Shown in pieces: positions 384 to 28,369 of a stretch of 35,654 nucleotides of DNA; position 1 is the first letter of the stretch; each line of letters starts with the position of its first letter. The DNA is taken from UHGV virus genome UHGV-0232315; one strand, 5' to 3'. This DNA is from a virus. The position numbers were made by a program, and so were the translations under genes. The notes below the pieces were generated by a model. That model did no database searches. It was not told the origin of the DNA and worked only from the letters and a program-made list of their open reading frames with translations.

Positions 384-941
384 TCACATAAACATCTGGA
401 TTTGCTCGTTTTTTAGTTGGTTGATTTTTTCGCGCAATCTGATCTTTTCATCAGCTTTTTCCAAAGAGGCTGGTGACATGCAGTTAATCAAAGCGTCAAG
501 GTGCTCTGGAGATTTGATAATAAAGAACTTTTTGTATTTATTAACAAAAACGACAGAGCATTTTTTACGTTTAAGAAGCTCAATCACGTTACTCAGAGTA
601 CCCGTGCTCTTCGTATCCCAAACCATTAATCCATAATCGGCTTCTTCTGCCATTTTGAGATCTTTCGCAGTGAAAAACGCGCGAGTGCCGGCTGCATGGC
701 TAGTACTTACTACATGTACAGGCCATGAGCCAAGATTATTGCGCGGTTTTTCTGAGCTACTGAATACTGTGGCTTTTTCACATCCAAGTTCTAGCAATAC
801 GCGTTGAACAGATGCATCAACACCATTGGCATCACCAACTACAATACGAAAACGCGAGTTAACAATTTTTTTCAGACGATCCACGATGAGTGTGTCAAGG
901 TTTTTGATGGTTATTGAACCAGCAACAAATACCGTAGTCAT
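384..941 (-). CDS. DprA/SLOG-like Rossmann-fold protein (ShosA-like candidate)
   Basis: ORF-track protein with VFVAGS, IVVGDANGVD (DprA-type GxARGID-like) and STGTLSNVIE (LOG-type PGGxGT-like) motifs; ORF-track start 953 is TTG, I place the start at ATG 941 preceded by GGAG; 2 nt after the upstream gene stop (translational coupling). Confidence 0.6.
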   Translation of the reverse strand: MTTVFVAGSITIKNLDTLIVDRLKKIVNSRFRIVVGDANGVDASVQRVLLELGCEKATVFSSSEKPRNNLGSWPVHVVSTSHAAGTRAFFTAKDLKMAEEADYGLMVWDTKSTGTLSNVIELLKRKKCSVVFVNKYKKFFIIKSPEHLDALINCMSPASLEKADEKIRLREKINQLKNEQIQMFM

Positions 942-943
942 CA

Positions 944-1525
944 CTATCTCCAAGTCAAAGCTGCAACATAAATGCTTCTAACCTTAGTATAATCGTTTAG
1001 CACAGCACAAGCAGCCTCCATAGATGCGCCTGTATGGTAAAGGTCGTCAATGATAAGGACATTCCAGTTGCCATTATTCTCAATACTGTCATTAACAGAG
1101 AACGAATTACCCAGCGCCGTGATTTTCTCTTCTTTTGTATTCAGGTTCTTTAGCGAAGCCCCGCCGGGGGCTTTCAACAAGAGGTCATCGAAGCATGGTT
1201 TGCCAACTAGTTTGGCTAGTTCCTGAGCTATTTCGGTCACTGGCTGGCGTGCACGCTGATTAGATGCAGCCATTGGAACGATAAACCCGACATTGCTGAA
1301 ATGAGGAAAGGCATGCTCTGCTAGGCATTGGGCTAAAGGCTTAACTTGTGACCAATCGTTACGGTATTTAAGCTGGAAAAGAGATTCGCCTACCTCAGTA
1401 CGCTCAGTCTCAAACCGCATATGTCCCCACTCATCGTAACCAATGGGAATGCTGCGGATGCTGTGTTTATCCATCGCAAGACCTAATTCCCAATTTCCAA
1501 CAATCTGTTTTATGTTGACTTTCAT
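944..1525 (-). CDS. Phosphoribosyltransferase (PRTase)-fold protein (ShosT-like candidate)
   Basis: Classic type I PRTase PRPP-binding motif VLIIDDLYHTGASM near the C-terminus; ATG start 1525; first gene of a two-gene minus-strand operon. Confidence 0.65.
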   Translation of the reverse strand: MKVNIKQIVGNWELGLAMDKHSIRSIPIGYDEWGHMRFETERTEVGESLFQLKYRNDWSQVKPLAQCLAEHAFPHFSNVGFIVPMAASNQRARQPVTEIAQELAKLVGKPCFDDLLLKAPGGASLKNLNTKEEKITALGNSFSVNDSIENNGNWNVLIIDDLYHTGASMEAACAVLNDYTKVRSIYVAALTWR

Positions 1526-1796
1526 GGCTCACCGTTTGCTGTGTAAAACACCAAAGATTACCTCTTGTTATATTTGGTGAAAGCGAAAGTTTCATTTTTT
1601 GCAGTGGAGATCAAATGTTACTCCGTGAACATTTTTAGCAGGTGGCCTCGCTACACGGTTTGGTGTAACTACTGCATGTCTATACTGCATAAATCCGCAT
1701 GATCGTTTAAGGATCGCTCTAGTTGGGGACTGCTAGGTATGGCGGGCTTTTGCTTATGTCATGCAGGTGCATGAAAACCACTATATAAAGCGGGCA

Positions 1797-1815
1797 GGCG
1801 TGGCGGGGATACGAG
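1797..1815. other. Possible cos (cohesive end) site
   Basis: GGCGTGGCGGGGATACGAG: first 13 nt match the P2/186 19-nt cohesive-end sequence as I recall it (GGCG[A/T]GGCGGGGAAAGCA..); lies in a 423-bp intergenic region next to a CATGCA-gg-TGCATG dyad (about 1758-1771). Confidence 0.35.
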
Positions 1816-1948
1816 CGCGCGTTATGACAAATAGATGATTAGCCTGATTTATTTACAGCTGTATAAATGATCACCTTGTAATTAGGTAAGTAATGTCTTC
1901 TATTATCATTGATTTGATAGGATTAATCTGTTTTTTGAGGATTAGAGG

Positions 1949-4285
1949 ATGATTGAAGAGGTAGTTATTGACAAGGTAGGCTCATATAATGGCCCTACGC
2001 AGCTTTTACATGGACTTTCTAAATTTAACTATTTATATGGAGCTAATGGTGCAGGTAAAACAACTATAAGTAAAATTATTAATGACCCTGAACAATATCC
2101 AACATGTCCGATTAAATGGAAAAATAATATATCTTTAATAAGCTACGTATATAATAAAGATTTTGTTGAAAGAAATTTTAGTCAAGATAAAATTAAAGGT
2201 GTATTTACCCTTGGTAGCGATCTTAAGGAGGATGAAGAGAAACTAATATCTCTTAAAGAAGAAAAAAATAAGCTAATGGAATCTATTATAGCAAAGGGAA
2301 AGTTAATAGATGGTGGTGATAATGAATTAGGCGTTATTAAAAAAATCGAAGACCATGAAAAATCTTTTAAAGATTCATGTTGGAAGCAAAAAGTAAAACA
2401 TGACAATGTGTTCTCAAAGGCTTTTGAGGGATTAAGGAATAGTAGTGAAAAATTTAAAGCCAGAGTGTTGGCTGAGTATGAAAATAATACATCAGAAGTT
2501 TGCTCAATAGCAGAGTTAATTGAGAAAGCAAAAATTGTTTTTTCTACTGAATTGACATCACATGTATCAATTACAATTCCATCCTTCAATGGGATAGATG
2601 ATATTTTGAGTAGGGAAATTTGGAGTGAGCGTATTCTAGGGAAAAAAGACGTTAGTGTTTCAGACTTAATTACAATGCTCAATAACAGTGATTGGGTTAA
2701 GGAGGGTTTAACATATTTCAGTAAATCTAATCCCAAGTGCCCATTCTGCCAGCAGGATGTAAATGATAATATATTTGATAATCTTTCATCATATTTTGAT
2801 AAAACATATGAGTTAAAAAAAAGAGAAATCGATGCATTGGTTTTACAATATGAATATCAACTTAATAATATCTTGAAGGCGATAGATGATATAAGGGCGA
2901 TTAAATCTCCATTCATAAATTATGAAGTGTTTGAGGATAAGGCTAAGATAGTATTATCTGAATTAAACAAGAATTTTGAATTGGCAAAAAATAAACGCAA
3001 TTTTTTAAGTGAATCAGTTCATTTTAGTGACTTAAGTGAAGTTGTTGATGATTTTATTTCTTTTTTGAATGATTCAAATCTATTGATAGATAATAATAAC
3101 AAAATATATAGTAATAGAAAGGTAGAGGCTAGTAATCTTTCTAAGCAGATATGGGCATATATCGTAAAGGTGGAGTTAAAGTCTGAAATAACTTCTTACC
3201 GTAGCAAATCTGATAAATTTAATAGGACGTTACAAGGACTTAAATCTGGGATAGAAGAAGACAAAAAGAAGTTAATGTTAAATACTTCGGCTATTGAGGC
3301 AATTGAGTCTAATAAAACCAGTACTCTTCCAACTATTACAAAAATTAACAAGATTCTGGACTCTTATGGCTTCAAAAATTTTTACTTAAAACCCTCCGAA
3401 GATAAAAAGCATTATATGATAGTAAGAGATAGTGGAGATAATGCTCGTACAACCCTTAGTGAGGGAGAAAAGACATTTATCACTTTTTTGTACTTTTATA
3501 GCCTTGTTAGAGGGAGTGATAATGCATCAGGTGTTTTAGATGATCGTGTTGTAGTATTTGATGATCCAATTTCAAGTTTAGATAGTGATATTCTGTTTAT
3601 TGTAAGTTCGTTGATTAAAGATTTAATGGAGGATGTTCGTAAGGATGAAGGAAATATTAAGCAAATTATATTCCTTACTCATAATATTTATTTTCATAAA
3701 GAGTTGACTTTTAATACCAAAAGATCCGGTAATCAAGCAATGAAAGAGGAGACTTTTTGGATTGTAAGGAAAAAAGGGAAGGTTTCATATCTTGAAAAGT
3801 GCGAATCAAACCCAATAAAAACGTCTTATGATTTGCTCTGGTGCGAATTGAGAAGAACAGACATTAATAATAATACTATACAAAATACAATGCGAAGGAT
3901 TTTGGAGAATTACTTTAAGATATTAGGTGGGATGGATATTAGGAAGCTTGAGTGTCATTTTTATGGTGATGAAAAAATCATATTTAAATCTTTAGTGTCA
4001 TGGATTAATGATGGTTCCCATTTTGCAGGTGATGATCTTTATATGAATTTAGATACGGAGTCTGTGCAAAAATATTTAATTGTTTTTCAGAAGATATTTG
4101 AATGTAGTGAGCATACTGCCCATTACAAAATGATGATGGGTGAGTTTTATAAACCGTTAAATGAGTCACTTCATCTACAAGATGAGTTTGATATAGATGA
4201 TAGTGCGAATGATGAGTATGCTTCGTCAAAAATTGAGATAAAAGATGGAATAAACACATCTCTACATAGCAACACATATTTGTAA
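1949..4285 (+). CDS. ABC-type (AAA_13-like) ATPase with coiled-coil CxxC hook; RloC/PrrC-like candidate anticodon nuclease
   Basis: Walker A GANGAGKT (aa 32-39), Walker B/D-loop VVVFDDPISSLD, internal CPFC motif between Walker motifs, C-terminal R-x3-E..H arrangement (RRILEN ... H); very AT-rich relative to phage backbone; GAGG RBS. Confidence 0.55.
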   Translation: MIEEVVIDKVGSYNGPTQLLHGLSKFNYLYGANGAGKTTISKIINDPEQYPTCPIKWKNNISLISYVYNKDFVERNFSQDKIKGVFTLGSDLKEDEEKLISLKEEKNKLMESIIAKGKLIDGGDNELGVIKKIEDHEKSFKDSCWKQKVKHDNVFSKAFEGLRNSSEKFKARVLAEYENNTSEVCSIAELIEKAKIVFSTELTSHVSITIPSFNGIDDILSREIWSERILGKKDVSVSDLITMLNNSDWVKEGLTYFSKSNPKCPFCQQDVNDNIFDNLSSYFDKTYELKKREIDALVLQYEYQLNNILKAIDDIRAIKSPFINYEVFEDKAKIVLSELNKNFELAKNKRNFLSESVHFSDLSEVVDDFISFLNDSNLLIDNNNKIYSNRKVEASNLSKQIWAYIVKVELKSEITSYRSKSDKFNRTLQGLKSGIEEDKKKLMLNTSAIEAIESNKTSTLPTITKINKILDSYGFKNFYLKPSEDKKHYMIVRDSGDNARTTLSEGEKTFITFLYFYSLVRGSDNASGVLDDRVVVFDDPISSLDSDILFIVSSLIKDLMEDVRKDEGNIKQIIFLTHNIYFHKELTFNTKRSGNQAMKEETFWIVRKKGKVSYLEKCESNPIKTSYDLLWCELRRTDINNNTIQNTMRRILENYFKILGGMDIRKLECHFYGDEKIIFKSLVSWINDGSHFAGDDLYMNLDTESVQKYLIVFQKIFECSEHTAHYKMMMGEFYKPLNESLHLQDEFDIDDSANDEYASSKIEIKDGINTSLHSNTYL

Positions 4286-4296
4286 TTTTATTACAA

Positions 4297-4326
4297 TTGC
4301 CAGTAGCAACAATACGGTACTGGCAA
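4297..4326. terminator. Hairpin between convergent genes (possible bidirectional terminator)
   Basis: TTGCCAGTA-(12 nt loop)-TACTGGCAA perfect 9-bp inverted repeat between the ATPase gene stop (4285) and Q stop (4335); followed on + strand by ctaatatttt. Confidence 0.4.
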
Positions 4327-4334
4327 CTAATATT

Positions 4335-5363
4335 TTAGTTAAGCTCATATGGAGAAAATTCTATAAGTTTTTCCCCGAGCCATGCATTAATTTCTCTAAA
4401 TCGTTTTTGCAAAGGAATTAATTCATTTATCACAAAAACCTTACTAGCCTTCTCCACATCCCCAAATCCCCCGACATTATTAGGCATAATCCCCATCATT
4501 TGCGGTGGAACGCGGTGTGCCGCCATCATGTCATCGCGACTAACATTTTTGATATTCAGAAACTCATCCTTCGCTGCGACTTCTGATAACGGGATAATCT
4601 GAAGCCCGTCCTTTTTGCCGTTAGGTGAGTACATAAACAGGTTGCGGAAGTTGCCCGGCCCTTTGGCGCTTTTCATCGCATTGCGGAGGTTGTTCACATC
4701 CTCCTGGTTTTGCGCGGCATCGGTCATGTACATGATAAAGCCCGCATGACTGCCGTTAATGTAATACTTGCGACGGAACAGCGTGGCGGACTCGTTGAGC
4801 AGGGCTGACGGAATGGCAGAAAGATAACCGGGCAGGCCGTAGATCTCCTGATTAATATCCGGTTCCATCAGATGAAAAATGCTGCCTTTCGTGAACTGAT
4901 ACGGCTGGGTTGTCATACCGTATTGCACAAACCAGTAGGTATCCAGGTCTAATCCGCGTCGGGTGTATTTTGCCAGCGCAGGTTCAAGGGCGATCACTTC
5001 ACCGAAGCGGTTCGTGCGTTTCTCCAGATAGGCGTTGCCAAATACCAGATAGTCCTGCACAAAACGCGAAAAAGCTTGCTGGCTGAGCAGAGGATGAGGG
5101 ATATAGGTACTGGTCAGAATGTTGCACTTTACTGCAATCGGGGAACTGTGATGCACGGCAGCGCGGAAGGTGCGCGCCAGTCCGTCAAAGCTGACGGGCG
5201 GCTCATACCAACGGTCCATCTGTACGCATTCCACATAGTCCAGTAATTCTCGGCGGTCCAGAACAGGAACGGGATCGCCGAAGCTGAATGCTTCGGCTGT
5301 AGTCTGGTTTTTATGCTGGATCTGATTCGTCGCCGCAGTGCGGTTTTTCTTACTCTTTCCCAT
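4335..5363 (-). CDS. Q: Portal protein (P2 gpQ-like)
   Basis: Protein MGKSKKNRTAA... with P2 Q-like length and position; ORF-track start 5366 is TTG, ATG at 5363 overlaps the stop of P (TGATG). Confidence 0.9.
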   Translation of the reverse strand: MGKSKKNRTAATNQIQHKNQTTAEAFSFGDPVPVLDRRELLDYVECVQMDRWYEPPVSFDGLARTFRAAVHHSSPIAVKCNILTSTYIPHPLLSQQAFSRFVQDYLVFGNAYLEKRTNRFGEVIALEPALAKYTRRGLDLDTYWFVQYGMTTQPYQFTKGSIFHLMEPDINQEIYGLPGYLSAIPSALLNESATLFRRKYYINGSHAGFIMYMTDAAQNQEDVNNLRNAMKSAKGPGNFRNLFMYSPNGKKDGLQIIPLSEVAAKDEFLNIKNVSRDDMMAAHRVPPQMMGIMPNNVGGFGDVEKASKVFVINELIPLQKRFREINAWLGEKLIEFSPYELN

Positions 5364-7129
5364 CAAAAAATCTCCACAATATTGCTGGTATTGGCGGACT
5401 CGCCCTGCAGCGGTTCGTTAAACAGTGCGTGCATCGTTGCCCAGGCCAGATCGGCGTGGCTGGCTTCTTCGCTGCGGCTGGCTTCATAGGTTGGGCGGTT
5501 GCCACTGGCGGTGGTTGCGCGACGGATTGCCATAAATGACTGCGCAATGTCGGTGTGCCCGGCGTCAAACTCCAGACGGCGGTGGCTGATAATGTCGTAG
5601 GCCTTGAGTACCAGGGCGTTTTTAACGTTGGGGTTGTAGACAAACTCCCGGACGGCAGGAAAGAACGCTTTCACGTTCTCGTAAACCCCGTGACCAACGC
5701 CGGTTGAGTCGATACCGATATAAGTCACGTTGTACTGCTCGGTAAGTTTTTTGATGGCGTCAGCCTGGGCGCGGAAGTCCATCCCGCGCCACTGGTGACG
5801 CTCAAGAATGCGGAACTTACCACCCGGCACGGCTGGCGGTGCCACCACCACGCATCCGGCGCTGTCGCCGTTTTGCGTACCTTTTGCCGGGTCATAACCG
5901 ATCCACACTTCGCGCCAGCCAAACGGGCGCAGCGCCAGTGCATGAAAGTCGGTCCAGATTTCCCAGCTGTCTACCATGCACGCCTGCAGCTCGCTGAGAG
6001 GGAACACGGACGCGAGATCGTCCACAAACTCGCACATCAGCAGGTTCTGGTATTCGTCCGGGCTGTACTCCATGCGCAACTGGTCAAGGTCGAACAGGTT
6101 ACAGCCGCCGCGCACCGCATCTTCCACGGTGACTATCTGGCGGTATTGCCCGTCTGCGCACAGCAGGCCGGGGGCCAGATTTCTGTGGGACAGGTCGATG
6201 TCCACCTTATCGGCTTTGTTGCGCCCACGGTTGAACAGCGCACCGGACCAGAACGGATAAGCACTGTGTGTCAGACTGGATGGCGTGGAAAAATAGGTTT
6301 GTCGCCATTTTTTGTGAATAGCCATACCGGAAGCCACTTTGCGCAGCTCCTGGAATTTCGGTATCCAGAAATATTCATCCAGATACAGGTTGCCGTGGTA
6401 ACTCTGGGCCGTGCGGGCATTGGTGCCGAGGAAGTAAAGCGTGGCCCCGTTAGGAAGCACCATCGGATCGCCTTTCAGCTCCACCTCGACTTCTTTGGCG
6501 AAGTCGATGATGTACTGCTTAAAGACGTGGGCCTGTGCCTTACTGGCGGAAAGGAAAATCTGGTTACGTCCGGTAAGCAGAGCGTCAATCAGGGCTTCAC
6601 GGGCAAAGTAAAAGGTCGCGCCGATCTGGCGTGATTTCAGCAGGTTGCGGATGCGGTTGGTTTTTCCGGCTTCCCACCAGTGGCGCTGGTAGTTGAACAT
6701 GGAGGAATGGAAGATTTCTTCCAGCTTCTCAATCTGTTCATCGGTGAAAACATTCTTTTCCGGCTGACGGCGCGGGCCTTTGTTGCGGTTGGCGACGTTA
6801 GGGTTTAAGTCGGCTTCGTTGCCGCCATTGTTAAACTTGCCGATGCGCGCGTGGCGCTCCGACTGGCGCGCCAGCAGGTCAATCTCTTTGAAATCTTTCC
6901 CTTCTTTGTGCTCCTTCATAATGAGCTGGCAGTAGCGTGCGGCGGTGGTGAGCTGCATCTGATCCAGCGGCCCATAGTCACCCCACTTGTCGCGTTTTTT
7001 CCAGCTATGAACGGTTGCAACTTTCTCGCCCAGCATTTCAGCAATGCGGGCGACGCGGTATCCCTGAAAGTACAGCAGCATGGCCTGCCGACGGGGATCG
7101 AGATCTGCGGGTGTCAGTGTGGTGTTCAT
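5363..7129 (-). CDS. P: Terminase large (ATPase) subunit (P2 gpP-like)
   Basis: 588-aa product upstream of Q in the divergent P2 arrangement; ATG 7129. Confidence 0.9.
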   Translation of the reverse strand: MNTTLTPADLDPRRQAMLLYFQGYRVARIAEMLGEKVATVHSWKKRDKWGDYGPLDQMQLTTAARYCQLIMKEHKEGKDFKEIDLLARQSERHARIGKFNNGGNEADLNPNVANRNKGPRRQPEKNVFTDEQIEKLEEIFHSSMFNYQRHWWEAGKTNRIRNLLKSRQIGATFYFAREALIDALLTGRNQIFLSASKAQAHVFKQYIIDFAKEVEVELKGDPMVLPNGATLYFLGTNARTAQSYHGNLYLDEYFWIPKFQELRKVASGMAIHKKWRQTYFSTPSSLTHSAYPFWSGALFNRGRNKADKVDIDLSHRNLAPGLLCADGQYRQIVTVEDAVRGGCNLFDLDQLRMEYSPDEYQNLLMCEFVDDLASVFPLSELQACMVDSWEIWTDFHALALRPFGWREVWIGYDPAKGTQNGDSAGCVVVAPPAVPGGKFRILERHQWRGMDFRAQADAIKKLTEQYNVTYIGIDSTGVGHGVYENVKAFFPAVREFVYNPNVKNALVLKAYDIISHRRLEFDAGHTDIAQSFMAIRRATTASGNRPTYEASRSEEASHADLAWATMHALFNEPLQGESANTSNIVEIF

Positions 7130-7175
7130 GGCACAAACCTACAGCCTTGAATGAAGGCTTTCCCCGCCTGCGGTT

Positions 7176-7193
7176 TGTGTGGTTGTCGGTACA
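7176..7193. promoter_or_regulatory. Ogr/B-type late-promoter activator site (TGT-N12-ACA) in the P/O divergent promoter region
   Basis: TGTgtggttgtcggtACA; centre is 87 bp from the O ATG and 55 bp from the P ATG; an imperfect second dyad TGTttcactgcccccATC lies at 7206-7223. Confidence 0.55.
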
Positions 7194-7271
7194 AATACCG
7201 CGCATTGTTTCACTGCCCCCATCACCGCAACCATAAGGCTCCAGTAAGTTTTTTCTAACGGAGCACGGCTC

Positions 7272-14651: not shown

Positions 14652-15546
14652 CCTTTCGCAGTTGCCTGCACCGCAGATTGTGGATGTGCCGGACTTTGAG
14701 ACGCTGCTTGCCGAACGCAAGGCAGAATTTGTGGCGCTTCATCCGAAAGATGAGCAGGAAGCAGTGATCCGCACGCTGGAACTGGAATCTGAACCCGTCA
14801 CCAAATTGTTGCAGGAGAACGCTTACCGTGAGTTGCTTCTGCGCCAGCGCATTAACGAAGCCGCGCAGGCGGTAATGGTGGCTTACGCGATGGGCGGCGA
14901 TCTTGACCAGATCGCTGCCAACTACAACGTGAAACGCCTGACGGTGACGCCTGCTGATAATAACGCTGTGCCGCCCGTTGCAGCAGTGATGGAAAGCGAT
15001 GAAGCGTTACGCCTGCGTGTGCCTGCAGCCTTTGAGGGGCTTTCAGTTGCGGGACCAACTGCCGCTTATGAATTTCATGCCCGAAGCGCCGACGGTCGGG
15101 TGGCGGATGCCAGTGCAACCAGTCCGGCACCTGCAGAGGTGGTACTGACTATCCTGAGCCGTGAAGGCGACGGAACAGCAGAAAAAGATTTGCTGGATGT
15201 GGTGGAGAAAGCCCTGAACAGTGAGAACGTCCGCCCAGTGGCTGACCGTCTGACGGTTCGCAGCGCAGAAATCATCCCGTACCGTGTGGAAGCCACCATT
15301 TTTCTTTATCCGGGACCGGAAGCAGAGCCGGTAATGGCAGCGGCAAAAGTCAGCCTGCAGAGGTACATCGCCAGTCAGACGCGGCTCGGTCGGGATATTC
15401 GCCGTAGTGCCATCTTTGCCGCGCTGCATGTTGAGGGTGTTCAACGTGTGGAACTGGCTTCTCCGCTGGCGGATGTGGTTCTGAACAAAACGCAGGCGGC
15501 ATCATGTACGCAGTGGAGCGTGACCAACGGAGGAACGGATGAATAG
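14638..15546 (+). CDS. J: Baseplate assembly protein J (P2 gpJ-like)
   Basis: ORF 14599-15546 (GTG); start placed at ATG 14638 (MAVIDLSQLP...). Confidence 0.85.
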   Translation: MAVIDLSQLPAPQIVDVPDFETLLAERKAEFVALHPKDEQEAVIRTLELESEPVTKLLQENAYRELLLRQRINEAAQAVMVAYAMGGDLDQIAANYNVKRLTVTPADNNAVPPVAAVMESDEALRLRVPAAFEGLSVAGPTAAYEFHARSADGRVADASATSPAPAEVVLTILSREGDGTAEKDLLDVVEKALNSENVRPVADRLTVRSAEIIPYRVEATIFLYPGPEAEPVMAAAKVSLQRYIASQTRLGRDIRRSAIFAALHVEGVQRVELASPLADVVLNKTQAASCTQWSVTNGGTDE

Positions 15547-16144
15547 TCTGCTACCACCGGGTTCAACTTCACTGGAGCGACGACTGGCGCAAACCTGCAG
15601 TGGGATTTCTGATCTGCAGGTGCTGCTGCGTGACTTGTGGAATCCGGCTACCTGTCCGGTCAGCTTCCTGCCTTATCTCGCCTGGGCGTTCTCTGTGGAT
15701 CGCTGGGACGAGGGCTGGACAGAAAGCGTCAAACGCCAGGTAGTGAAGGATGCTTTTTATATTCATCAGCATAAAGGGACCACCAGTGCCGTGCGGCGGG
15801 TGGTGGAGCCGTTCGGCTTTCTGATCCGCATTATTGAGTGGTGGCAGACCGGAGAGGCACCGGGCACGTTTCGTCTGGATATCGGCGTGCAGGACCAGGG
15901 CATCACTGAAGATACCTATCTGGAACTTGAGCGACTGATAAGCGATGCCAAACCATGTAGCCGTCACATGAGCGGCATGTCCATCAACCTGCAGACCAGC
16001 GGCCCGCATTGGGTGGGAGCCGCCAGCTATCTTGGCGAAGAAATCACGATCTATCCGTATATCAACGAAACAATTATTTCCGGCGGCACCGCGCATGAAG
16101 GCGGGGCGGTCCATGTTATTGACACAATGAGAGTGAATCCATGA
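15539..16144 (+). CDS. I: Baseplate/tail protein I (P2 gpI-like)
   Basis: 201 aa; GGAGGAA RBS; overlaps the J stop. Confidence 0.85.
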   Translation: MNSLLPPGSTSLERRLAQTCSGISDLQVLLRDLWNPATCPVSFLPYLAWAFSVDRWDEGWTESVKRQVVKDAFYIHQHKGTTSAVRRVVEPFGFLIRIIEWWQTGEAPGTFRLDIGVQDQGITEDTYLELERLISDAKPCSRHMSGMSINLQTSGPHWVGAASYLGEEITIYPYINETIISGGTAHEGGAVHVIDTMRVNP

Positions 16145-18060
16145 GCACAAAATTTTATACCCTGCTGACGGATATTGGCGCGGCGAAACTTGCCAGCGCC
16201 GCCGCGCTTGGTGTGCCGCTAAAAATAACCCATATGGCGGTGGGCGATGGCGGCGGAGCATTGCCGACGCCGGACGCAAAGCAGACTGCACTGGTAAATG
16301 AGAAACGCCGGGCTGCGCTGAATATGCTCTATATCGACCCGCAGAACAGCAGCCAGATTATTGCTGAACAGGTGATCCCTGAAAACGAGGGCGGTTGGTG
16401 GATACGTGAAGTGGGCCTGTTTGATGAGTCAGGGGCATTGATTGCCGTGGGGAACTGCCCGGAAAGTTATAAACCGCAACTGGCTGAAGGCAGCGGGCGC
16501 ACCCAGACCGTGCGCATGGTGCTGATTACCAGCAGTACGGACAATATCACCCTGAAAATCGACCATGCTGTAGTACTGGCAACTCGCAAGTATGTGGATG
16601 ACAAAATATCAGAGCACGAACAGTCACGACGTCACCCGGACGCCTCGCTGACCGCAAAAGGTTTTACTCAGTTAAGCAGTGCGACCAACAGTGAATCCGA
16701 AATACTGGCCGCAACACCGAAGGCTGTGAAGGCTGCATATGATCTTGCAGCAGGTAAAGCATCCGCCAGTCACACACACCCGTGGAATCAGATAACAGGT
16801 GTACCTGCAGCCTCGCTGACGGTAAAAGGCACTGTGCAACTCAGCAGCGCCACTAACAGCACATCAGAAACGCAGGCCGCCACTCCAAAGGCAGTGAAGG
16901 CGGCATATGACCTTGCAGCAGGTAAGGCACCTGTCAGTCACACACACCCGTGGAATCAGATAACGGATGTGCCTGCAGCTTCACTGACGGTAAAAGGCAC
17001 CGTGCAACTCAGCAGTGCCACTAACAGCACGTCAGAAACGCAGGCTGCCACACCAAAGGCAGTGAAGGCGGCATATGACCTTGCAGCAGGTAAGGCACCT
17101 GTCAGTCACACGCACCCGTGGAGCCAGATAACGGATGTGCCTGCAGCTTCACTGACGGTAAAAGGCACCGTGCAACTCAGCAGCGCCACTAACAGCACGT
17201 CAGAAACGCAGGCTGCCACACCAAAAGCTGTGAAGGCTGTATATGACCTTGCCAATGGAAAACAACCTGCCGACGCCACACTGACCGCACTGGCAGGCCT
17301 TGCCACTGCGGCAGACAAACTTCCGTATTTTACGGGGAATGATACAGCCAGCCTGACAACCCTGACTAACGTTGGACGGAATATTCTGGATAAAGCAAGT
17401 ACACAGGCGGTTATTCAATATCTTGGTCTGAGCGATGCAAGTGGATACGTTGGACGCTGGCTGAATACCCGGGTTTTCACCTCATCAGGTACGTACACCC
17501 CGACGCCAGGAACAAAACGGATCAGGGTCACAATAACGGGCGGCGGTGGCGGAGGGGGCGGCTGCAAGGCTACATCCAATAATGAAACGTTTTTCGGTGC
17601 TGGCGGCGGGGCAGGTGGGACAGTAATCACCACGCTGATCCTGACGAAGGATAGTTATCCTGTCACTATCGGTGCAGGTGGGGCCGGCGGCGTTAGTGCG
17701 ACGAACGGCCTCAAGGGCGGTGATAGCTCGTTCGGATCGGTAATAGCCCCTGGTGGTGAAGGTGGTGGAAAATCAGGAGTCACAAACACGAACGGTGGTA
17801 ACGGCGGCGTGCCAAGTACTGGCGGTATCAACATCATTGGTGGAAATGGAGGCGACGGTCAGTCCGGAAATATCGGCGTCAGCGGTGAAGGCGGAACATC
17901 GTACTGGGGGGGCGGTGGACGCGCAGGCGCTGGCGGTGGTGTTAGTGGTAAGGCATATGGTTCAGGTGGCGGTGGCGCATACGATGCCGGTTATAGCGGA
18001 ACCAGTATGACAGGCGGGAAAGGTGCTGCTGGGATTTGTATTATCGAGGAGTTTGCATAA
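16141..18060 (+). CDS. H: Tail fibre protein H: P2 H-like N-terminus, four tail-fibre repeats, glycine-rich C-terminal module
   Basis: N-terminal ~170 aa P2 H-like (MSTKFYTLLTDIGAAKLA...DASLTAKGF); 4 x 56-aa repeats; C-terminus dominated by Gly runs (GGGGGGGGCK..., GAGGGAGG...). Confidence 0.9.
   Translation: MSTKFYTLLTDIGAAKLASAAALGVPLKITHMAVGDGGGALPTPDAKQTALVNEKRRAALNMLYIDPQNSSQIIAEQVIPENEGGWWIREVGLFDESGALIAVGNCPESYKPQLAEGSGRTQTVRMVLITSSTDNITLKIDHAVVLATRKYVDDKISEHEQSRRHPDASLTAKGFTQLSSATNSESEILAATPKAVKAAYDLAAGKASASHTHPWNQITGVPAASLTVKGTVQLSSATNSTSETQAATPKAVKAAYDLAAGKAPVSHTHPWNQITDVPAASLTVKGTVQLSSATNSTSETQAATPKAVKAAYDLAAGKAPVSHTHPWSQITDVPAASLTVKGTVQLSSATNSTSETQAATPKAVKAVYDLANGKQPADATLTALAGLATAADKLPYFTGNDTASLTTLTNVGRNILDKASTQAVIQYLGLSDASGYVGRWLNTRVFTSSGTYTPTPGTKRIRVTITGGGGGGGGCKATSNNETFFGAGGGAGGTVITTLILTKDSYPVTIGAGGAGGVSATNGLKGGDSSFGSVIAPGGEGGGKSGVTNTNGGNGGVPSTGGINIIGGNGGDGQSGNIGVSGEGGTSYWGGGGRAGAGGGVSGKAYGSGGGGAYDAGYSGTSMTGGKGAAGICIIEEFA
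16648..17319 (+). repeat. Four tandem 168-bp (56-codon) in-frame repeats inside H
   Basis: Units begin at 16648, 16816, 16984 and 17152 (each starts ctgac[cg]g[ct]aaaagg); units 2 and 3 differ at only a few bases, unit 4 diverges at its 3' end. Confidence 0.9.
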
Positions 18061-18473
18061 TGAATGCGTCATATGCAGTTATTGAAAATGGGATGGTTGT
18101 GAATGTCATTGTCTGGGATGGCGAGGCTGAATTCACAGTGCCGGATAATCAGCAGCTCATTGATATTTCTGATATCAGTGAGCATCCCGGAATCGGCTGG
18201 GGGTATTCAGACGGGGTATTTACTGCGCCGCTCCCTCCGGAACGTTCTCATGATGAACTGGTAGCTGACGCTGAACAGAAAAAACAGTCGCTGATAGACG
18301 CAGCAATGGCCAATATCAGCGTGATTCAGTTAAAGCTGCAGGCCGGGCGCAAACTGACGCAAGAAGAAACTACCCGACTTAACGTTGTGCTGGATTATAT
18401 CGAGGCTGTGACGGCAACAGATACCAGCACCGCACCTGATATCATTTGGCCTGTTTTCCCTGCAAGCAGATAA
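18060..18473 (+). CDS. G: Tail fibre assembly protein (gpG/Tfa-like)
   Basis: ORF 18036-18473; ATG 18060 overlaps the H stop (TAATG); C-terminal ...DTSTAPDIIWPVFP is Tfa-like. Confidence 0.85.
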   Translation: MNASYAVIENGMVVNVIVWDGEAEFTVPDNQQLIDISDISEHPGIGWGYSDGVFTAPLPPERSHDELVADAEQKKQSLIDAAMANISVIQLKLQAGRKLTQEETTRLNVVLDYIEAVTATDTSTAPDIIWPVFPASR

Positions 18474-18485
18474 ATACCGTCATTT

Positions 18486-18503
18486 TGTGTGAATAACGGT
18501 ACA
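18486..18503. promoter_or_regulatory. Ogr/B-type late-promoter activator site (TGT-N12-ACA) upstream of FI
   Basis: TGTgtgaataacggtACA centred 85 bp upstream of the FI ATG in the 106-bp G-FI intergenic region. Confidence 0.55.
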
Positions 18504-18579
18504 ACTGCGCTTAGCTGCTTGTCAGACACAATCACTTCAACATAGGGCGAAGCCTAATCCAATCAGGAGGTTCGCCACT

Positions 18580-25891: not shown

Positions 25892-26944
25892 TTACGGGGT
25901 AATGCCAACCGCTGCCGCCACTTTGCCGCCACTTGGCAGCGTTGCCAGAGGATTGAAACGGAGCGCCGTTTCCAGATGATCCGGTGCCAGATGAGCGTAA
26001 CGCATAGTCATTTTTATATCGTGATGTCCGAGGATTTTTTGCAAAGCAAGGATATTTCCACCCGACATCATGAAATGTGCCGCAAACGTATGGCGCAGAA
26101 CGTGTGTCAGTTGACCGCGAGGGAGCACGATTGACGTTTTTTCCATCACGGATAAAAATTGAAAATAGCAGTCTGTGAAGAAATTGAACCCATCAAGCGC
26201 CATGATCTCTTCATAAAGCTCTTTACTGATAGGGATGCTTCTGTTTTTCTTCCCCTTCGTTCTTACAAAGGTAATTCGGTATTTAGTCACCTGTGATCGG
26301 GTAAGGTTTATTGCTTCTCGCCAGCGTGCGCCTGTGCTTAAGCATATCTTGACTACCAGTGCCAGAATTGGGTCCTGACGTTTGCAATCAGCCAGCAGTT
26401 CAACAATCTGCTCATGGGTAAGCCATGCCATCTCTTTTTCTGCGATGGTGAATTTTCGCATGTTCTCCAGTGGGTTTGGATACGACCATTCGCCCAGGCG
26501 GGATAGTTCGCTAAAAACACTACTTAGATAGCTTTGCTCCAGGTTAATGGTGACCGGGCTGGCTCCTTTCTTCCATTTCTCGCTGAAGTAGATCTCACCT
26601 GTCAGGCGTTTATCTCGATAGTGGGCAAACATTTTAGAGGTGAGATCGGTTGCAAGAGGATTGCCCAGAGCGTCAACCATCAGCAGCAATTTGTCATAGA
26701 CATGCTGCCCAGCAGTCAGAGATTTACCATGTAATTTGAACCATAGCTCAACCACGTCTTTCAGTGTTCGACGATCCACTGATTCACCTAGCCAAGGCTT
26801 TGCTTCGGTTTCTTCCATCGTGTGACGCTCAAAAGCCAGAGCTTCGCCTTTGGTGGCGAATTGTTTACGCACACGACGTCCACTACGTCCGGCGGGATAA
26901 CATTCGCACAGCCATTTTCCTGTGGTGAGTTTTCGTACTGCCAT
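25892..26944 (-). CDS. int: Tyrosine integrase
   Basis: 350 aa MAVRKLTTGKWLCECYPAGRSGRRVRKQF... with C-terminal ...HVLRHTFAAHFMMSGGNILALQKILGHHDIKMTMRYAHL catalytic region (R..H-x-x-R..Y). Confidence 0.9.
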   Translation of the reverse strand: MAVRKLTTGKWLCECYPAGRSGRRVRKQFATKGEALAFERHTMEETEAKPWLGESVDRRTLKDVVELWFKLHGKSLTAGQHVYDKLLLMVDALGNPLATDLTSKMFAHYRDKRLTGEIYFSEKWKKGASPVTINLEQSYLSSVFSELSRLGEWSYPNPLENMRKFTIAEKEMAWLTHEQIVELLADCKRQDPILALVVKICLSTGARWREAINLTRSQVTKYRITFVRTKGKKNRSIPISKELYEEIMALDGFNFFTDCYFQFLSVMEKTSIVLPRGQLTHVLRHTFAAHFMMSGGNILALQKILGHHDIKMTMRYAHLAPDHLETALRFNPLATLPSGGKVAAAVGITP

Positions 26945-27026: not shown

Positions 27027-28358
27027 TCATTGGAGCAAGAAAACTTTTAAGGTGTTTTTGAATATTCTAACAGGGTCTTCTACACCTGCATTTCCTTTTA
27101 AAATATGATAATCACTTATTTCAGCCCATCTGTTTTTTTCATCGTTTTCAGAAGGAAGTAAAGGAGAACCTTCTGGCATATATTTATAAGTTATACCAAA
27201 TAATGCATAATAGTAGATGTTGATGTTATATTGATCTGTCTGATATGGGAGTCTATTAACACCGAAGAAATTAATTATTAATTGTGCATCTATTTTATCT
27301 TCTACGTAGTTAAGGGCCAGTTCACGACCAAACGAATAAAGAATTACTGCAAGGGTTCGATAACAGCAATAGCCTGGTATAAATTTATTGCTGATTTCAT
27401 TTTGAGATAAAATTTGATAAATTTCTAGATATCTTGATAAGGTTTCAACTTCCCGTAGCGACAAGCCTTTTAGTTCGATAAATTTTTGAACTATATGAAT
27501 ACTACTTTCTCCAATTTCTTTTAGTCTTTCAGACTCGTTACATAGCATTCTAAAATGAGAGTTCGAAGCCAAAATTTTATCGTAATTGTTTTCAGTGAAA
27601 GTCACTGGCAGGCTGTAAGTGAATTTTATAAATTTATCAAGATATCTTTCTGAGTCAACACCTGCACCGTAAATATGATTTATTGATGCTTTCAATTGTG
27701 AGATGTTAGCAACTAACAAGAAGTTAAGATTTTCAGTGTCAAAAACATGTTTTATATTTTCGATGATAGAGATGGCAAAGCTTGGTTTACAACGGTCAAG
27801 TTCGTCAATGATAATTGTTATTTTATTTTCGCTAGTTAGTTCAGCAAGTACTTCCTTGAGAGCAAGCAAATGTTTCTTTGCTTCAATATGATCATCAAGC
27901 AGTGCTTCTACAGTACCATCTATAGCTGAGTTAGCCGCATCTTTAATAGCATCTTCGAATTCATCCGCAATATCATCTGCATTTTGTTTTAAAATCCACC
28001 CAGCGCCAGCTTTGAGTACAGTTTTAAGTCCAAATCTCAATGCTGGTAATGCCTTTGATATTAATTCCTTCTTTTCACTCTCTGGATATAATGCAACTAT
28101 TGCAGCCATTATAGTAAGTATGGGAGCATCATTATGATCTTCAGTAAATGCATCAATATATACTACTTTATGCCCAGATTCATTTTTTTCAATCAATGCC
28201 GCTAATTTTTTTGAAAATTCGGTTTTACCGGTACCCCAGTCCCCATCGATAACAATAGGGGATATTTTTAAGGGGGACTCGAGTAAGCTTATTATTTTTT
28301 CAGCAATGATTTTTCTATTATACTCATCTCTGTTTTCAAAAGTCATATCATTATTCAT
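27027..28358 (-). CDS. KAP-family P-loop NTPase
   Basis: Walker A GDWGTGKT (GxWGxGKT KAP signature) and Walker B IIIDELDRC; ORF-track start 28367 is TTG, I place the start at ATG 28358 after AAGG; AT-rich. Confidence 0.65.
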   Translation of the reverse strand: MNNDMTFENRDEYNRKIIAEKIISLLESPLKISPIVIDGDWGTGKTEFSKKLAALIEKNESGHKVVYIDAFTEDHNDAPILTIMAAIVALYPESEKKELISKALPALRFGLKTVLKAGAGWILKQNADDIADEFEDAIKDAANSAIDGTVEALLDDHIEAKKHLLALKEVLAELTSENKITIIIDELDRCKPSFAISIIENIKHVFDTENLNFLLVANISQLKASINHIYGAGVDSERYLDKFIKFTYSLPVTFTENNYDKILASNSHFRMLCNESERLKEIGESSIHIVQKFIELKGLSLREVETLSRYLEIYQILSQNEISNKFIPGYCCYRTLAVILYSFGRELALNYVEDKIDAQLIINFFGVNRLPYQTDQYNINIYYYALFGITYKYMPEGSPLLPSENDEKNRWAEISDYHILKGNAGVEDPVRIFKNTLKVFLLQ

Positions 28359-28369
28359 ATGAAGCAACC

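What the first reader, a model, noticed from the sequence alone, without database searches (positions are those of the whole stretch)
17500..18060. Glycine-rich C-terminal module on the tail fibre (mosaic receptor-binding region)
After the conserved H N-terminus and repeats, the last ~185 aa are dominated by Gly runs (GGGGGGGGCK, GAGGGAGG, GGNGGDGQSG, GGGGRAGAGGG), ending ...AAGICIIEEFA. This is unlike the P2 H C-terminus as I recall it and suggests a swapped host-range module.
Basis: partly seen in the sequence, partly recalled or inferred. Interest (0 to 1): 0.35.

Follow-up and report, generated by a model that had tools for sequence, protein, structure and literature searches.

The report
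Swapped glycine-rich tail-fibre tip module
The glycine-rich end of this P2-like phage's tail fibre is real: it is a known, well-folded receptor-binding tip that phages trade as a cassette with the matching half of its assembly chaperone, so it is a tidy but ordinary case of host-range module swapping.

Summary
Observation confirmed. The last 185 aa of the 639-aa H-like tail fibre (16141-18060, +) are 35.7% Gly, against 6.4% upstream, and every quoted run sits where stated. The region is not low-complexity filler. It is a Pfam PF21722 (Gly_rich_2) domain (aa 448-636). A family profile matches the solved cyanophage Pam3 fibre gp24 (E 1.2e-19). AlphaFold2 gives pLDDT 95.3, and Foldseek's best PDB match is Pam3 gp24 (TM 0.72), then Bxb1 gp33 and, weakly, ALK/LTK. 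The downstream 137-aa Tfa (18060-18473) has one significant PDB fold match: Pam3 gp25, the chaperone bound to gp24 in the same entry.

Interpretation supported. Homology to P2 H ends after "...AVIQYLGL" (nt 17421/17422), at a degenerate relic of a Gin/Cin/Pin crossover site. From there to nt ~18453 the tip plus Tfa recurs in e14/Mu-like prophages (98%), P1-like plasmids (89%) and jumbo phage Goslar (67%). About 148 of 1029 E. coli genomes with this H N-terminus carry this junction; no P2-like record in the phage collection does.

The tip is 211/214 identical to that of prophage DuoHS of E. coli HS, whose adsorption needs O9 O-antigen. An O9/LPS receptor is therefore the best inference. New member of a known kind; low-to-moderate interest.

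The parts
16141..18060 (+). H-like tail fibre gene, 639 aa
   Evidence: ORF. Pfam Phage_tail_fib aa 1-150 (E 2.5e-64), Phage_fiber_2 x4, Gly_rich_2 aa 448-636. phrog_6202 'tail fiber protein' matched end to end, 879 bits.
16141..16604 (+). Backbone-type N-terminal (baseplate-attachment) part of H
   Evidence: 96.7% nt identity to Peduoviridae phage Cartapus and 96.2% to Kp4845-2, ending exactly at 16604. Present in 1029/5426 E. coli genomes.
16605..17421 (+). Shaft with P2-H-like fibre repeats, including a 168-bp x 3.2 tandem array (16707-17252)
   Evidence: 74-82% nt matches to P2 H. Tandem Repeats Finder period 168, 92% matches. Pfam Phage_fiber_2 repeats.
17411..17436 (+). Constant/variable junction: degenerate relic of a Gin/Cin/Pin-type crossover site, coding VIQYLGLSD
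   Evidence: It aligns with the near-palindromic site CTCTCGAAAACCTTGGTTTGGGAGAT of the e14-like locus L002 and with P2 H GTTATCGAATATCTCGGTTTACAGGAA. All foreign-context matches start at 17417-17422. It does not pass a consensus scan at <=3 mismatches.
17422..18057 (+). Exchangeable tip: short linker plus TNF-like beta-sandwich / polyglycine-lattice domain (Pfam domain nt 17482-18048)
   Evidence: PF21722 at 55 bits against a 24.3 cutoff. Profile hit to Pam3 gp24, E 1.2e-19. AF2 pLDDT 95.3, pTM 0.90. Foldseek 7ypx_A E 6.6e-9, TM 0.72. 211/214 aa identical to the DuoHS tip.
18060..18473 (+). Tail fibre assembly chaperone (Tfa), 137 aa; its ATG overlaps the H stop (TAATG)
   Evidence: Sequence. 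Pfam Caudo_TAP E 2.3e-20. The exact protein is in NCBI as 'tail fiber assembly protein'. AF2 pLDDT 89.7. The only significant PDB fold match is 7ypx_a, the 162-residue second chain of the Pam3 fibre entry, taken to be chaperone gp25 (E 8.3e-5).
18060..18284 (+). Tfa N-terminal beta domain, which travels with the glycine-rich tip
   Evidence: Co-linear with the tip in L002 (98%), L006 (89%) and Goslar (67% nt; 66% aa). Strands at aa 3-55 in the model. Absent from the Tfa genes of P2-like phages with other tips.
18285..18453 (+). Tfa C-terminal helical domain, shared among many Tfa genes
   Evidence: About 82% nt identity to Tfa genes of HK106, SfIV, Kp4845-2, pro483 and others, over this stretch only. 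Helices at aa 64-118.
18454..18473 (+). Last 6 Tfa codons plus stop, supplied by backbone DNA (3' junction of the cassette)
   Evidence: Cartapus homology (96.3%) resumes at 18454, 17 bp after the stop of Cartapus's Gin-like invertase gene.

Best explanation
The glycine-rich C-terminus is the receptor-binding tip of the phage's only tail fibre. It is a compact domain of the Pam3-gp24 / Pfam Gly_rich_2 type: a TNF-like beta-sandwich from which glycine-rich strands run out and back, packing as a hydrogen-bonded polyglycine-II-type lattice. The Gly motifs form the invariant scaffold. The short non-Gly segments between paired motifs (about aa 475-485, 518-525, 544-551, 574-581, 613-624) form the variable distal surface that contacts the host. 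Folding and trimerisation are assisted by the Tfa chaperone encoded immediately downstream. By analogy with Pam3 gp25, its N-terminal beta domain is specific for this tip and its C-terminal helices are generic. The unit 'tip + Tfa up to nt ~18453' (17422-18453) is a horizontally exchanged host-range cassette. Its 5' edge lies at a fossil DNA-invertase crossover site inside the fibre gene. Its 3' edge lies at the very end of tfa. The likely receptor is LPS O-antigen, specifically O9 polymannan. Shown here: domain identity, predicted fold, chaperone pairing, junctions and distribution. Inferred: polyglycine-II geometry, trimer, loop-receptor contacts and receptor identity.
For: Composition and motifs. 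PF21722 above its cutoff. A profile of 118 family members hits Pam3 gp24 across the whole domain, E 1.2e-19. AF2 gives pLDDT 95.3 and pTM 0.90, with only about 9 short strands and the rest non-helix, non-strand yet confident. Foldseek PDB ranks Pam3 gp24 first (E 6.6e-9, TM 0.72, 32% id), then Bxb1 gp33 (E 3.6e-8), then ALK/LTK. 280 viral models match in BFVD; Goslar's fibre gives TM 0.96. The domain ends within 3 aa of the C-terminus in 141/149 representative homologues of 85-1405 aa. Glycine motifs are conserved and the inter-motif segments are the variable and indel-prone parts, both across the family and within the close E. coli clade. Tfa is Caudo_TAP; its model has an N-terminal beta domain plus 3 helices, and its single significant PDB match is the second chain of the Pam3 fibre entry, taken to be gp25. 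The Pam3 paper describes exactly this architecture and chaperone mechanism (PMC9608196). In a Klebsiella phage gp24 homologue, host-range mutations map to the Gly-rich domain and the protein blocks LPS-triggered DNA ejection (PMC12671077). Mosaic junctions. Functionality and receptor: the tip is 211/214 aa identical to that of the inducible P2-like prophage DuoHS of E. coli HS, whose adsorption and infection require O9 O-antigen (bioRxiv 10.64898/2026.09.09.750276). The lytic phage Goslar carries the same tip with a 138-aa Tfa.
Against: No experiment links this domain itself to receptor binding in any P2-like phage, and the DuoHS study does not mention the fibre tip. The HMM hits carry a heavy compositional bias (about 53 bits); single-sequence phmmer against PDB gave only E about 1. 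TM to the Pam3 chaperone is only 0.43. The 3 substitutions relative to DuoHS (R444Q, T478I, Y589H) could alter specificity; T478 lies in a predicted variable segment.
Confidence: 0.85

Rival explanations
1. The tip binds an outer-membrane protein or LPS core rather than O9 O-antigen. It has the same fold and mechanism but a different ligand, as with T-even gp38 adhesins that bind OmpC/OmpF/Tsx.
For: gp38-type polyglycine adhesins bind porins (papers listed, e.g. PMC12892980, PMC12032242). P2 itself uses LPS core (general knowledge). The O9 dependence of DuoHS could reflect a first reversible step or another virion protein. The same tip clade sits in prophages of many E. coli strains whose serotypes were not checked.
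Against: The only receptor data for a phage with a 99%-identical tip point to O9 O-antigen: four independent resistant mutants in manB, manC and wzt, and a wzt deletion abolishes attachment. Closer structural relatives (gp24 homologues) are linked to LPS. Pfam GP38 was not hit.
Confidence: 0.25
2. The arrangement is a decayed invertible segment. An ancestor had H-const | Hv-tfa / tfa'-Hv' | invertase, as in Cartapus, and a deletion removed tfa'-Hv'-invertase, freezing the Gly-rich orientation. On this view the cassette was not imported directly by recombination into a non-invertible P2-type locus.
For: Cartapus, whose flanks are 96-97% identical, has the full invertible set-up with a Gin-like invertase at this locus. 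Window homology resumes 17 bp after that invertase gene. The cassette's 3' limit (18453) coincides with the point where convergent tfa/tfa' genes meet in L002. A crossover-site relic sits at the 5' junction.
Against: The shaft (16605-17421) also differs from Cartapus, so more than one exchange is needed. The window's site is too degenerate to be recognisable as functional. P2 itself lacks an invertase. This rival concerns history only, and both routes give the same present-day function.
Confidence: 0.4
3. The Gly-rich stretch is unstructured low-complexity sequence: a flexible or collagen-like spacer, or a translated repeat artefact with no specific fold or function.
For: 35.7% Gly with runs of up to 8 Gly. 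BLAST's low-complexity filter masks most of it. Several BFVD relatives are named 'collagen-like'.
Against: pLDDT is 95.3 with no segment below 50 after the first 10 residues. There is a full-length profile and fold match to an experimentally solved domain. Non-Gly motifs are conserved, e.g. FTSSGTYTP and the terminal beta-strand. No Gly-X-Y periodicity is visible in the sequence, and Tandem Repeats Finder reports no array in the tip. A 99%-identical copy sits in an infective phage.
Confidence: 0.02
4. The Gly-rich module is the ancestral C-terminus of H in this phage group, and P2 is the odd one out.
For: phrog_6202 shows that the same whole-fibre architecture recurs. 148 E. coli genomes carry it.
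Against: That is only about 14% of genomes with this H N-terminus. It is absent from all 84 related phage records. The same tip at 89-98% nt identity is attached to unrelated fibre shafts, with sharp breakpoints.
Confidence: 0.03
5. The C-terminal domain is an intramolecular chaperone that is cleaved off after assembly, as in T5 pb1 or K1F endosialidase, and not the receptor-binding tip.
For: Many fibres end in auto-cleaved chaperone domains (discussed in PMC9608196).
Against: There is no fold or sequence match to such domains. A separate Tfa chaperone is encoded downstream. In Pam3 the homologous domain is in the mature fibre and the chaperone is the separate gp25.
Confidence: 0.02

Closest known systems
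Cyanophage Pam3 tail fibre gp24 with chaperone gp25 (PDB 7YPX/7YFW); Pfam PF21722 Gly_rich_2
   Same: The TNF-like plus glycine-rich tip matches by profile (E 1.2e-19) and by predicted fold (TM 0.72, 32% id). It has the same terminal beta-strand ending (GIxIIEEF vs GIIIVQYF). A Tfa-type chaperone with an N-terminal beta domain and C-terminal helices is encoded just downstream, and it matches the second chain of the same PDB entry.
   Different: Pam3 gp24 is a minimal 280-aa fibre with a helical N-terminal shaft. Here the domain caps a 430-aa P2-type fibre (collar domain plus repeats). Sequence identity is low, and the number and length of inter-motif loops differ (insertion hot spots). The Tfa is 137 aa against 162 aa.
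P2-like prophage DuoHS of E. coli HS (fibre WP_000104758.1)
   Same: Same phage type, same gene order, a tip 211/214 aa identical, and the same Tfa. It is an active phage whose adsorption needs O9 O-antigen.
   Different: DuoHS H is 583 aa, exactly 56 aa shorter, which equals one 168-bp shaft repeat unit (inference). There are three tip substitutions (R444Q, T478I, Y589H).
Bacteriophage P2 gpH / gpG
   Same: N-terminal collar domain and fibre repeats (53% identity over aa 1-438). Homology runs up to the same ...YLGL junction, and the gene order I-H-G-FI is the same.
   Different: The C-terminal ~285 aa of P2 H are unrelated (Gp34_trimer-type, no Gly_rich_2). P2 G is 175 aa and only 26% identical to the window Tfa (E 0.003). 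P2 has fun(Z) between G and FI; the window has nothing there.
Invertible tail-fibre segments of Mu (G/Gin), P1 (C/Cin), e14 (P/Pin) and Peduoviridae phage Cartapus
   Same: The cassette starts at the position of the crossover site inside the fibre gene. The very same tip+Tfa is the variable segment next to StfP and a recombinase pseudogene in e14/Mu-like prophages and occurs in IncY P1-like plasmids. Cartapus has a Gin-like invertase at this locus.
   Different: The window has no invertase (tblastn E>2), no alternative tfa'-Hv' segment, and only a degenerate site. The tip is therefore fixed, not switchable.
T-even gp38 adhesins (Salmonella phage S16 gp38, PDB 6F45)
   Different: gp38 is a separate monomeric protein docked on gp37, with a beta-helix rather than a TNF-like domain. 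Pfam GP38 was not hit, and 6F45 is not among the 50 best Foldseek matches.
ALK/LTK extracellular TNF-like + glycine-rich ('TG') domain (PDB 7NX1, 7LS0, 7N00)
   Same: The same combination of a TNF-like sandwich and a polyglycine lattice. Weak Foldseek matches (E 2e-3 to 7e-2, prob 0.57-0.98). The Pam3 paper reports RMSD 2.6 A over 125 C-alpha atoms to C. elegans ALK.
   Different: TM is only about 0.3 and identity 13-17%. Pfam Gly_rich PF12810 was not hit. ALK/LTK are animal cytokine receptors, not fibre tips.

Membership tests
Pfam PF21722 Gly_rich_2 / Pam3-gp24-type fibre tip | Sequence matches the family profile above the curated threshold | tested here: met
   55.0 bits against a 24.3 cutoff, aa 448-636 covering profile 2-224/226.
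Pfam PF21722 Gly_rich_2 / Pam3-gp24-type fibre tip | Homology to the structurally solved member over the whole TNF-like + Gly-rich region | tested here: met
   Profile of 118 homologues against PDB: 7ypx_A E 1.2e-19, chain residues 63-284. Single-sequence phmmer gave only E about 1.
Pfam PF21722 Gly_rich_2 / Pam3-gp24-type fibre tip | Fold: beta-sandwich plus extended glycine strands | tested here: met
   AF2 pLDDT 95.3. Foldseek top hit 7ypx_A, E 6.6e-9, TM 0.72.
Pfam PF21722 Gly_rich_2 / Pam3-gp24-type fibre tip | Located at the extreme C-terminus (distal end) of a fibre protein | tested here: met
   The domain ends at the last residue here, and within 3 aa of the C-terminus in 141/149 representatives.
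Pfam PF21722 Gly_rich_2 / Pam3-gp24-type fibre tip | Cognate Tfa-type chaperone encoded immediately downstream | tested here: met
   Caudo_TAP E 2.3e-20. TAATG overlap with the H stop. The fold matches the second chain of the Pam3 fibre entry, E 8.3e-5.
Pfam PF21722 Gly_rich_2 / Pam3-gp24-type fibre tip | Trimeric assembly and receptor contact through the distal inter-motif loops | not testable with these tools
   Only a monomer prediction was possible. Indirect support: variability concentrates in the inter-motif segments, and there are LPS-linked mutations in a Klebsiella phage homologue.
P2 gpH (whole-protein orthologue) | N-terminal collar domain and fibre repeats | tested here: met
   PF12571 E 2.5e-64, PF03406 x4. 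53% identity to P2 H over aa 1-438.
P2 gpH (whole-protein orthologue) | P2-type C-terminal receptor-binding region (P2 aa ~385-669) | tested here: not met
   No alignment beyond aa 438. P2 H has Gp34_trimer and no Gly_rich_2.
Din-invertase (Gin/Cin/Pin) switchable tail-fibre segment | Serine invertase gene adjacent to the segment | tested here: not met
   tblastn of the Cartapus Gin-like invertase against the window gave a best E of 2.8. FI follows tfa after 106 bp.
Din-invertase (Gin/Cin/Pin) switchable tail-fibre segment | Two inverted crossover sites flanking alternative Hv-tfa / tfa'-Hv' sets | tested here: not met
   Only a degenerate site remains at 17411-17436. The consensus scan found no site there at <=3 mismatches. 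There is no second tfa.
T-even gp38 adhesin (Pfam GP38; S16 gp38) | Profile match, and a separate monomeric adhesin docking on gp37 | tested here: not met
   No GP38 hit at E<=0.1. The domain is fused to the fibre. 6F45 is not in the 50 best Foldseek hits.
ALK/LTK glycine-rich domain (Pfam PF12810 Gly_rich) | Profile match, or close structural superposition | tested here: not met
   No PF12810 hit. Foldseek E 2e-3 to 7e-2, TM about 0.3: an analogue or very distant relative only.

The most novel reading that the evidence does not exclude
This PF21722 tip is a portable O-antigen-specific (O9 polymannan) glycan-binding module. It is passed, together with its chaperone's N-terminal domain, between P2-like prophages, e14/Mu-like invertible segments, P1-like phage-plasmids and a lytic jumbo phage, through the invertase crossover site inside fibre genes. 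Because the window's tip is 99% identical to DuoHS's, the published O9 dependence could be assigned to this domain. As far as I could find, that would be the first ligand assignment for a Gly_rich_2 tip in E. coli, and a handle for reading O-serotype tropism from the inter-glycine loops.
Probability: 0.4. Interest if true: 0.4.

Novelty: new member of a known kind. Interest (0 to 1): 0.25.

Why it matters
It shows how a string of glycines that looks like junk can be read as a defined, confidently modelled receptor-binding domain with a matched chaperone. It gives exact cassette boundaries (17422 to ~18453), which are useful for engineering P2-type phages or tailocins with new host ranges. It links a structurally solved cyanophage fibre-chaperone pair to a common E. 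coli prophage module found in about 7% of complete genomes. It also points to O9 O-antigen as a testable ligand. It does not reveal a new kind of system: tail-fibre mosaicism at invertase sites and the Gly-rich tip fold are both already described.

Tried and rejected
1. tblastn of the tip against the phage collection found only Goslar, and only the first half of the query. BLAST's low-complexity filter hides the rest, so it cannot be used to count occurrences.
2. Single-sequence phmmer against PDB gave only E about 1 to Pam3. A family profile was needed.
3. phmmer of Tfa against PDB gave only spurious RAD52 hits. The relationship to Pam3 gp25 appeared only at fold level.
4. NCBIfam has no model for the tip or for this Tfa.
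5. A Din-type crossover consensus scan (<=3 mismatches) did not recover the junction site, so I call it a relic and not a functional site.
6. I considered a disulfide between C475 and C633. The two Cys do not co-vary across the family (7 both, 43 first only, 19 second only), so I dropped it.
7. RefSeq flags the Tfa as a pseudogene ('incomplete') in related prophages. I rejected this as a sign of decay. The lytic phage Goslar has a 138-aa Tfa 66% identical over its full length. The exact 137-aa protein is widespread. Its model is confident.
8. A literature search for PF21722/Gly_rich_2 returned nothing. Haggard-Ljungquist et al. 1992 (PMC206541) is not held, so its content is cited from memory only.
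9. I did not attempt to correlate tip alleles with host O-serotype, because the listing limits of the genome search make the intersection unreliable.
Full report
**Observation**

The window is a P2-like (Peduoviridae) phage genome. Its tail gene block reads V-W-J-I-H-tfa-FI-FII-E-T-U-D.

The ORF at 16141-18060 (+) encodes a 639-aa fibre. Pfam finds the P2-type N-terminal collar domain (aa 1-150, E 2.5e-64), four Phage_fiber_2 repeats, and a Gly_rich_2 domain (PF21722) at aa 448-636 (55 bits against a 24.3 cutoff).

- Residues 455-639 are 35.7% Gly, against 6.4% upstream (P about 1e-31).
- The GGN codons explain the GC-skew peak, and I read the poly-Pro ORFs on the opposite strand as their by-product.

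The true domain begins slightly earlier (nt 17482), and the module junction is at nt 17421/17422.

**What the domain is**

An exhaustive search of 1.84 billion cluster representatives found 7,912 relatives at E<=1e-3. In 141 of the 149 best, the domain ends within 3 residues of the C-terminus, although the proteins range from 85 to 1405 aa. It is therefore a terminal tip domain placed on many different shafts.

- A profile of 118 members matches the solved fibre gp24 of cyanophage Pam3 across the whole domain (E 1.2e-19). A single-sequence search gave only E about 1.
- AlphaFold2 with this alignment gives pLDDT 95.3 and pTM 0.90. About nine short strands are assigned, and the rest is confident but neither helix nor strand. 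This is what a polyglycine-II lattice would look like to DSSP.
- Foldseek against PDB ranks Pam3 gp24 first (E 6.6e-9, TM 0.72, 32% identity). Next come the gp33 'tail wing brush' of mycobacteriophage Bxb1, then, weakly, the TNF-like/glycine-rich domains of ALK and LTK.
- In BFVD, 280 viral models match, from coliphage Goslar (TM 0.96) to cyanophages, mycobacteriophages and giant viruses.
- The Pam3 paper describes a TNF-like sandwich. Six loops extend from it, each with two glycine-rich motifs, and they stack into a four-layer lattice. The stem is conserved and the distal tips are variable and proposed to bind the receptor (PMC9608196).

The same pattern is seen here. Gly motifs are nearly invariant. 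The segments between them carry the substitutions and indels, both family-wide and within the close E. coli clade.

**The chaperone**

The next gene (ATG 18060, overlapping the H stop as TAATG; 137 aa) is a Caudo_TAP tail-fibre assembly protein. Its model (pLDDT 89.7) has an N-terminal beta domain (aa 3-55) and three helices (aa 64-118).

Its only significant PDB fold match is chain a of 7YPX (162 residues), which I take to be the Pam3 chaperone gp25 bound to gp24 in that entry (E 8.3e-5). Both partners of a solved fibre-chaperone complex are thus recovered side by side.

RefSeq marks this Tfa as 'incomplete' in related prophages. I do not read this as decay, for three reasons:

- The lytic jumbo phage Goslar has a 138-aa Tfa that is 66% identical over its full length.
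- The exact 137-aa protein is widespread in E. coli.
- The predicted structure is confident.

**Mosaic structure**

P2 H aligns with the window protein only up to '...AVIQYLGL' (P2 '...AVIEYLGL'). Beyond that there is no similarity, and P2 H carries a Gp34_trimer-type C-terminus instead. P2 G is only 26% identical to the window Tfa.

Local BLASTN gives sharp junctions:

| Comparison | Window region matched | Identity |
|---|---|---|
| Peduoviridae phage Cartapus | 15500-16604 | 96.7% |
| Cartapus | 16605-18453 | no match |
| Cartapus | 18454 onward | 96.3% |
| e14/Mu-like prophage (L002) | 17422-18453 | 98.2% |
| IncY P1-like plasmid (L006) | 17422-18460 | 88.9% |
| Jumbo phage Goslar (L005) | 17417-18463 | 67% (tip 71% aa, Tfa 66% aa) |
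| P2-like phages with other tips (e.g. Kp4845-2) | 18285-18453 (Tfa helical C-domain only) | ~82% |

The exchangeable unit is therefore the tip plus Tfa up to nt ~18453. Only the Tfa N-domain is specific to this tip. The last six Tfa codons come from backbone DNA.

The 5' junction coincides with a Gin/Cin/Pin-type crossover site. In the e14-like locus the sequence there is the near-palindromic CTCTCGAAAACCTTGGTTTGGGAGAT, next to StfP and a recombinase pseudogene. P2 H has GTTATCGAATATCTCGGTTTACAGGAA at the same position.

The window's version (GTTATTCAATATCTTGGTCTGAGCGAT) is degenerate and fails a consensus scan. The window has no invertase. Cartapus does have Hv-tfa-tfa'-Hv'-invertase at this locus, and window homology resumes 17 bp after its invertase gene. 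Whether the window's fixed arrangement arose by decay of such a switch or by direct recombination is unresolved.

That tail-fibre genes of P2, P1, Mu and lambda exchange parts at these sites was described by Haggard-Ljungquist et al. 1992 (J Bacteriol 174:1462) and Sandmeier 1994. I cite both from memory, because the 1992 paper is not held in the library.

**Distribution**

- 1029 of 5426 complete E. coli genomes have this H N-terminus.
- 148 have the P2-shaft-to-Gly-tip junction.
- 365 have the tip+Tfa module in any context, including 78 places on plasmids.
- None of the 84 phage records sharing the H gene's 5' DNA has the tip.

**Function and receptor**

The homologous gp24-type fibres of Klebsiella phages are tied to LPS. 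Host-range mutations map to the Gly-rich domain, and the protein blocks LPS-triggered DNA ejection (PMC12671077).

More directly, the P2-like prophage DuoHS of E. coli HS has the same gene order and a tip 211/214 aa identical to the window's.

- DuoHS is inducible and infective.
- Its adsorption and infection require the O9 polymannan O-antigen. Resistant mutants map to manB, manC and wzt, and a wzt deletion abolishes attachment.
- That study does not mention the fibre tip.

Since H is, as far as I know, the only fibre of P2-type virions, the simplest inference is that this Gly-rich tip binds O9 O-antigen, or needs it for the first adsorption step. I rate this about 0.4-0.5. An outer-membrane protein or LPS-core ligand remains possible.

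**Comparison with known families and verdict**

The domain passes every testable criterion for the PF21722 / Pam3-gp24 family. It is an analogue but not a member of the T-even gp38 adhesins or the ALK/LTK glycine-rich domain. The protein is a P2 gpH orthologue only in its N-terminal two-thirds. The locus is not a functional invertible segment.

This is a new member of a known kind. It is well explained, useful for fibre engineering and for assigning a ligand, but not surprising to a phage specialist. Interest 0.25.

Noticed in passing
window 17411-17436: The sequence coding VIQYLGLSD at the shaft/tip junction is a degenerate relic of a Gin/Cin/Pin-type invertase crossover site. It lines up with a near-palindromic site in an e14/Mu-like prophage and with the corresponding stretch of P2 H.
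   Followed up: yes
window 18454-18579; L009 (Cartapus) 4465-7231: Compared with the closely related phage Cartapus, the window lacks the alternative tfa'-Hv' segment and the Gin-like invertase. Backbone homology resumes 17 bp after Cartapus's invertase stop and supplies the last six codons of the window's Tfa.
   Followed up: yes
window 16707-17252: A 168-bp (56-aa) tandem repeat, 3.2 copies at 92% identity, lies in the fibre shaft. The DuoHS fibre is exactly 56 aa shorter (583 vs 639 aa), so repeat number, and hence fibre length, seems to vary between near-identical prophages.
   Followed up: partly
window 18486-18503: A TGT-N12-ACA dyad lies about 90 bp upstream of the sheath gene FI. It has the form I recall for P2 late-promoter (Ogr) activator sites. 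It is conserved in Cartapus but aligns poorly with P2's annotated pF region.
   Followed up: partly
window 1949-4285 (+) and 27027-28367 (-): Two large cargo-like genes sit at the variable positions of P2-type genomes. One is a 778-aa AAA_13 ATPase (E 1e-163). The other is a 446-aa KAP-family P-loop NTPase (E 4e-51) next to the integrase (25892-26944). Both are candidate anti-phage defence or moron genes.
   Followed up: partly
window 384-1525 (-): Two adjacent ORFs (189 and 193 aa) beside the AAA_13 gene have no Pfam match.
   Followed up: no
proteins P0006-P0120: Hundreds of 308-aa E. coli proteins consisting largely of this tip domain are named 'carbohydrate kinase' in NCBI records. This looks like a propagated misannotation of a phage fibre variable segment.
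   Followed up: no
window 17415-17633 (-), 17655-17837 (-), 17753-18010 (+): ORFs overlapping the Gly-rich region (poly-Pro on the minus strand) look like mirror images of the GGN codon runs rather than genes.
   Followed up: partly
L005 (Goslar) 673-5063: The lytic jumbo phage Goslar carries the same tip (71% aa) and Tfa (66% aa) at the end of a 1324-aa P1-S-like fibre. The cassette therefore crosses between temperate P2-like phages and a jumbo phage.
   Followed up: partly
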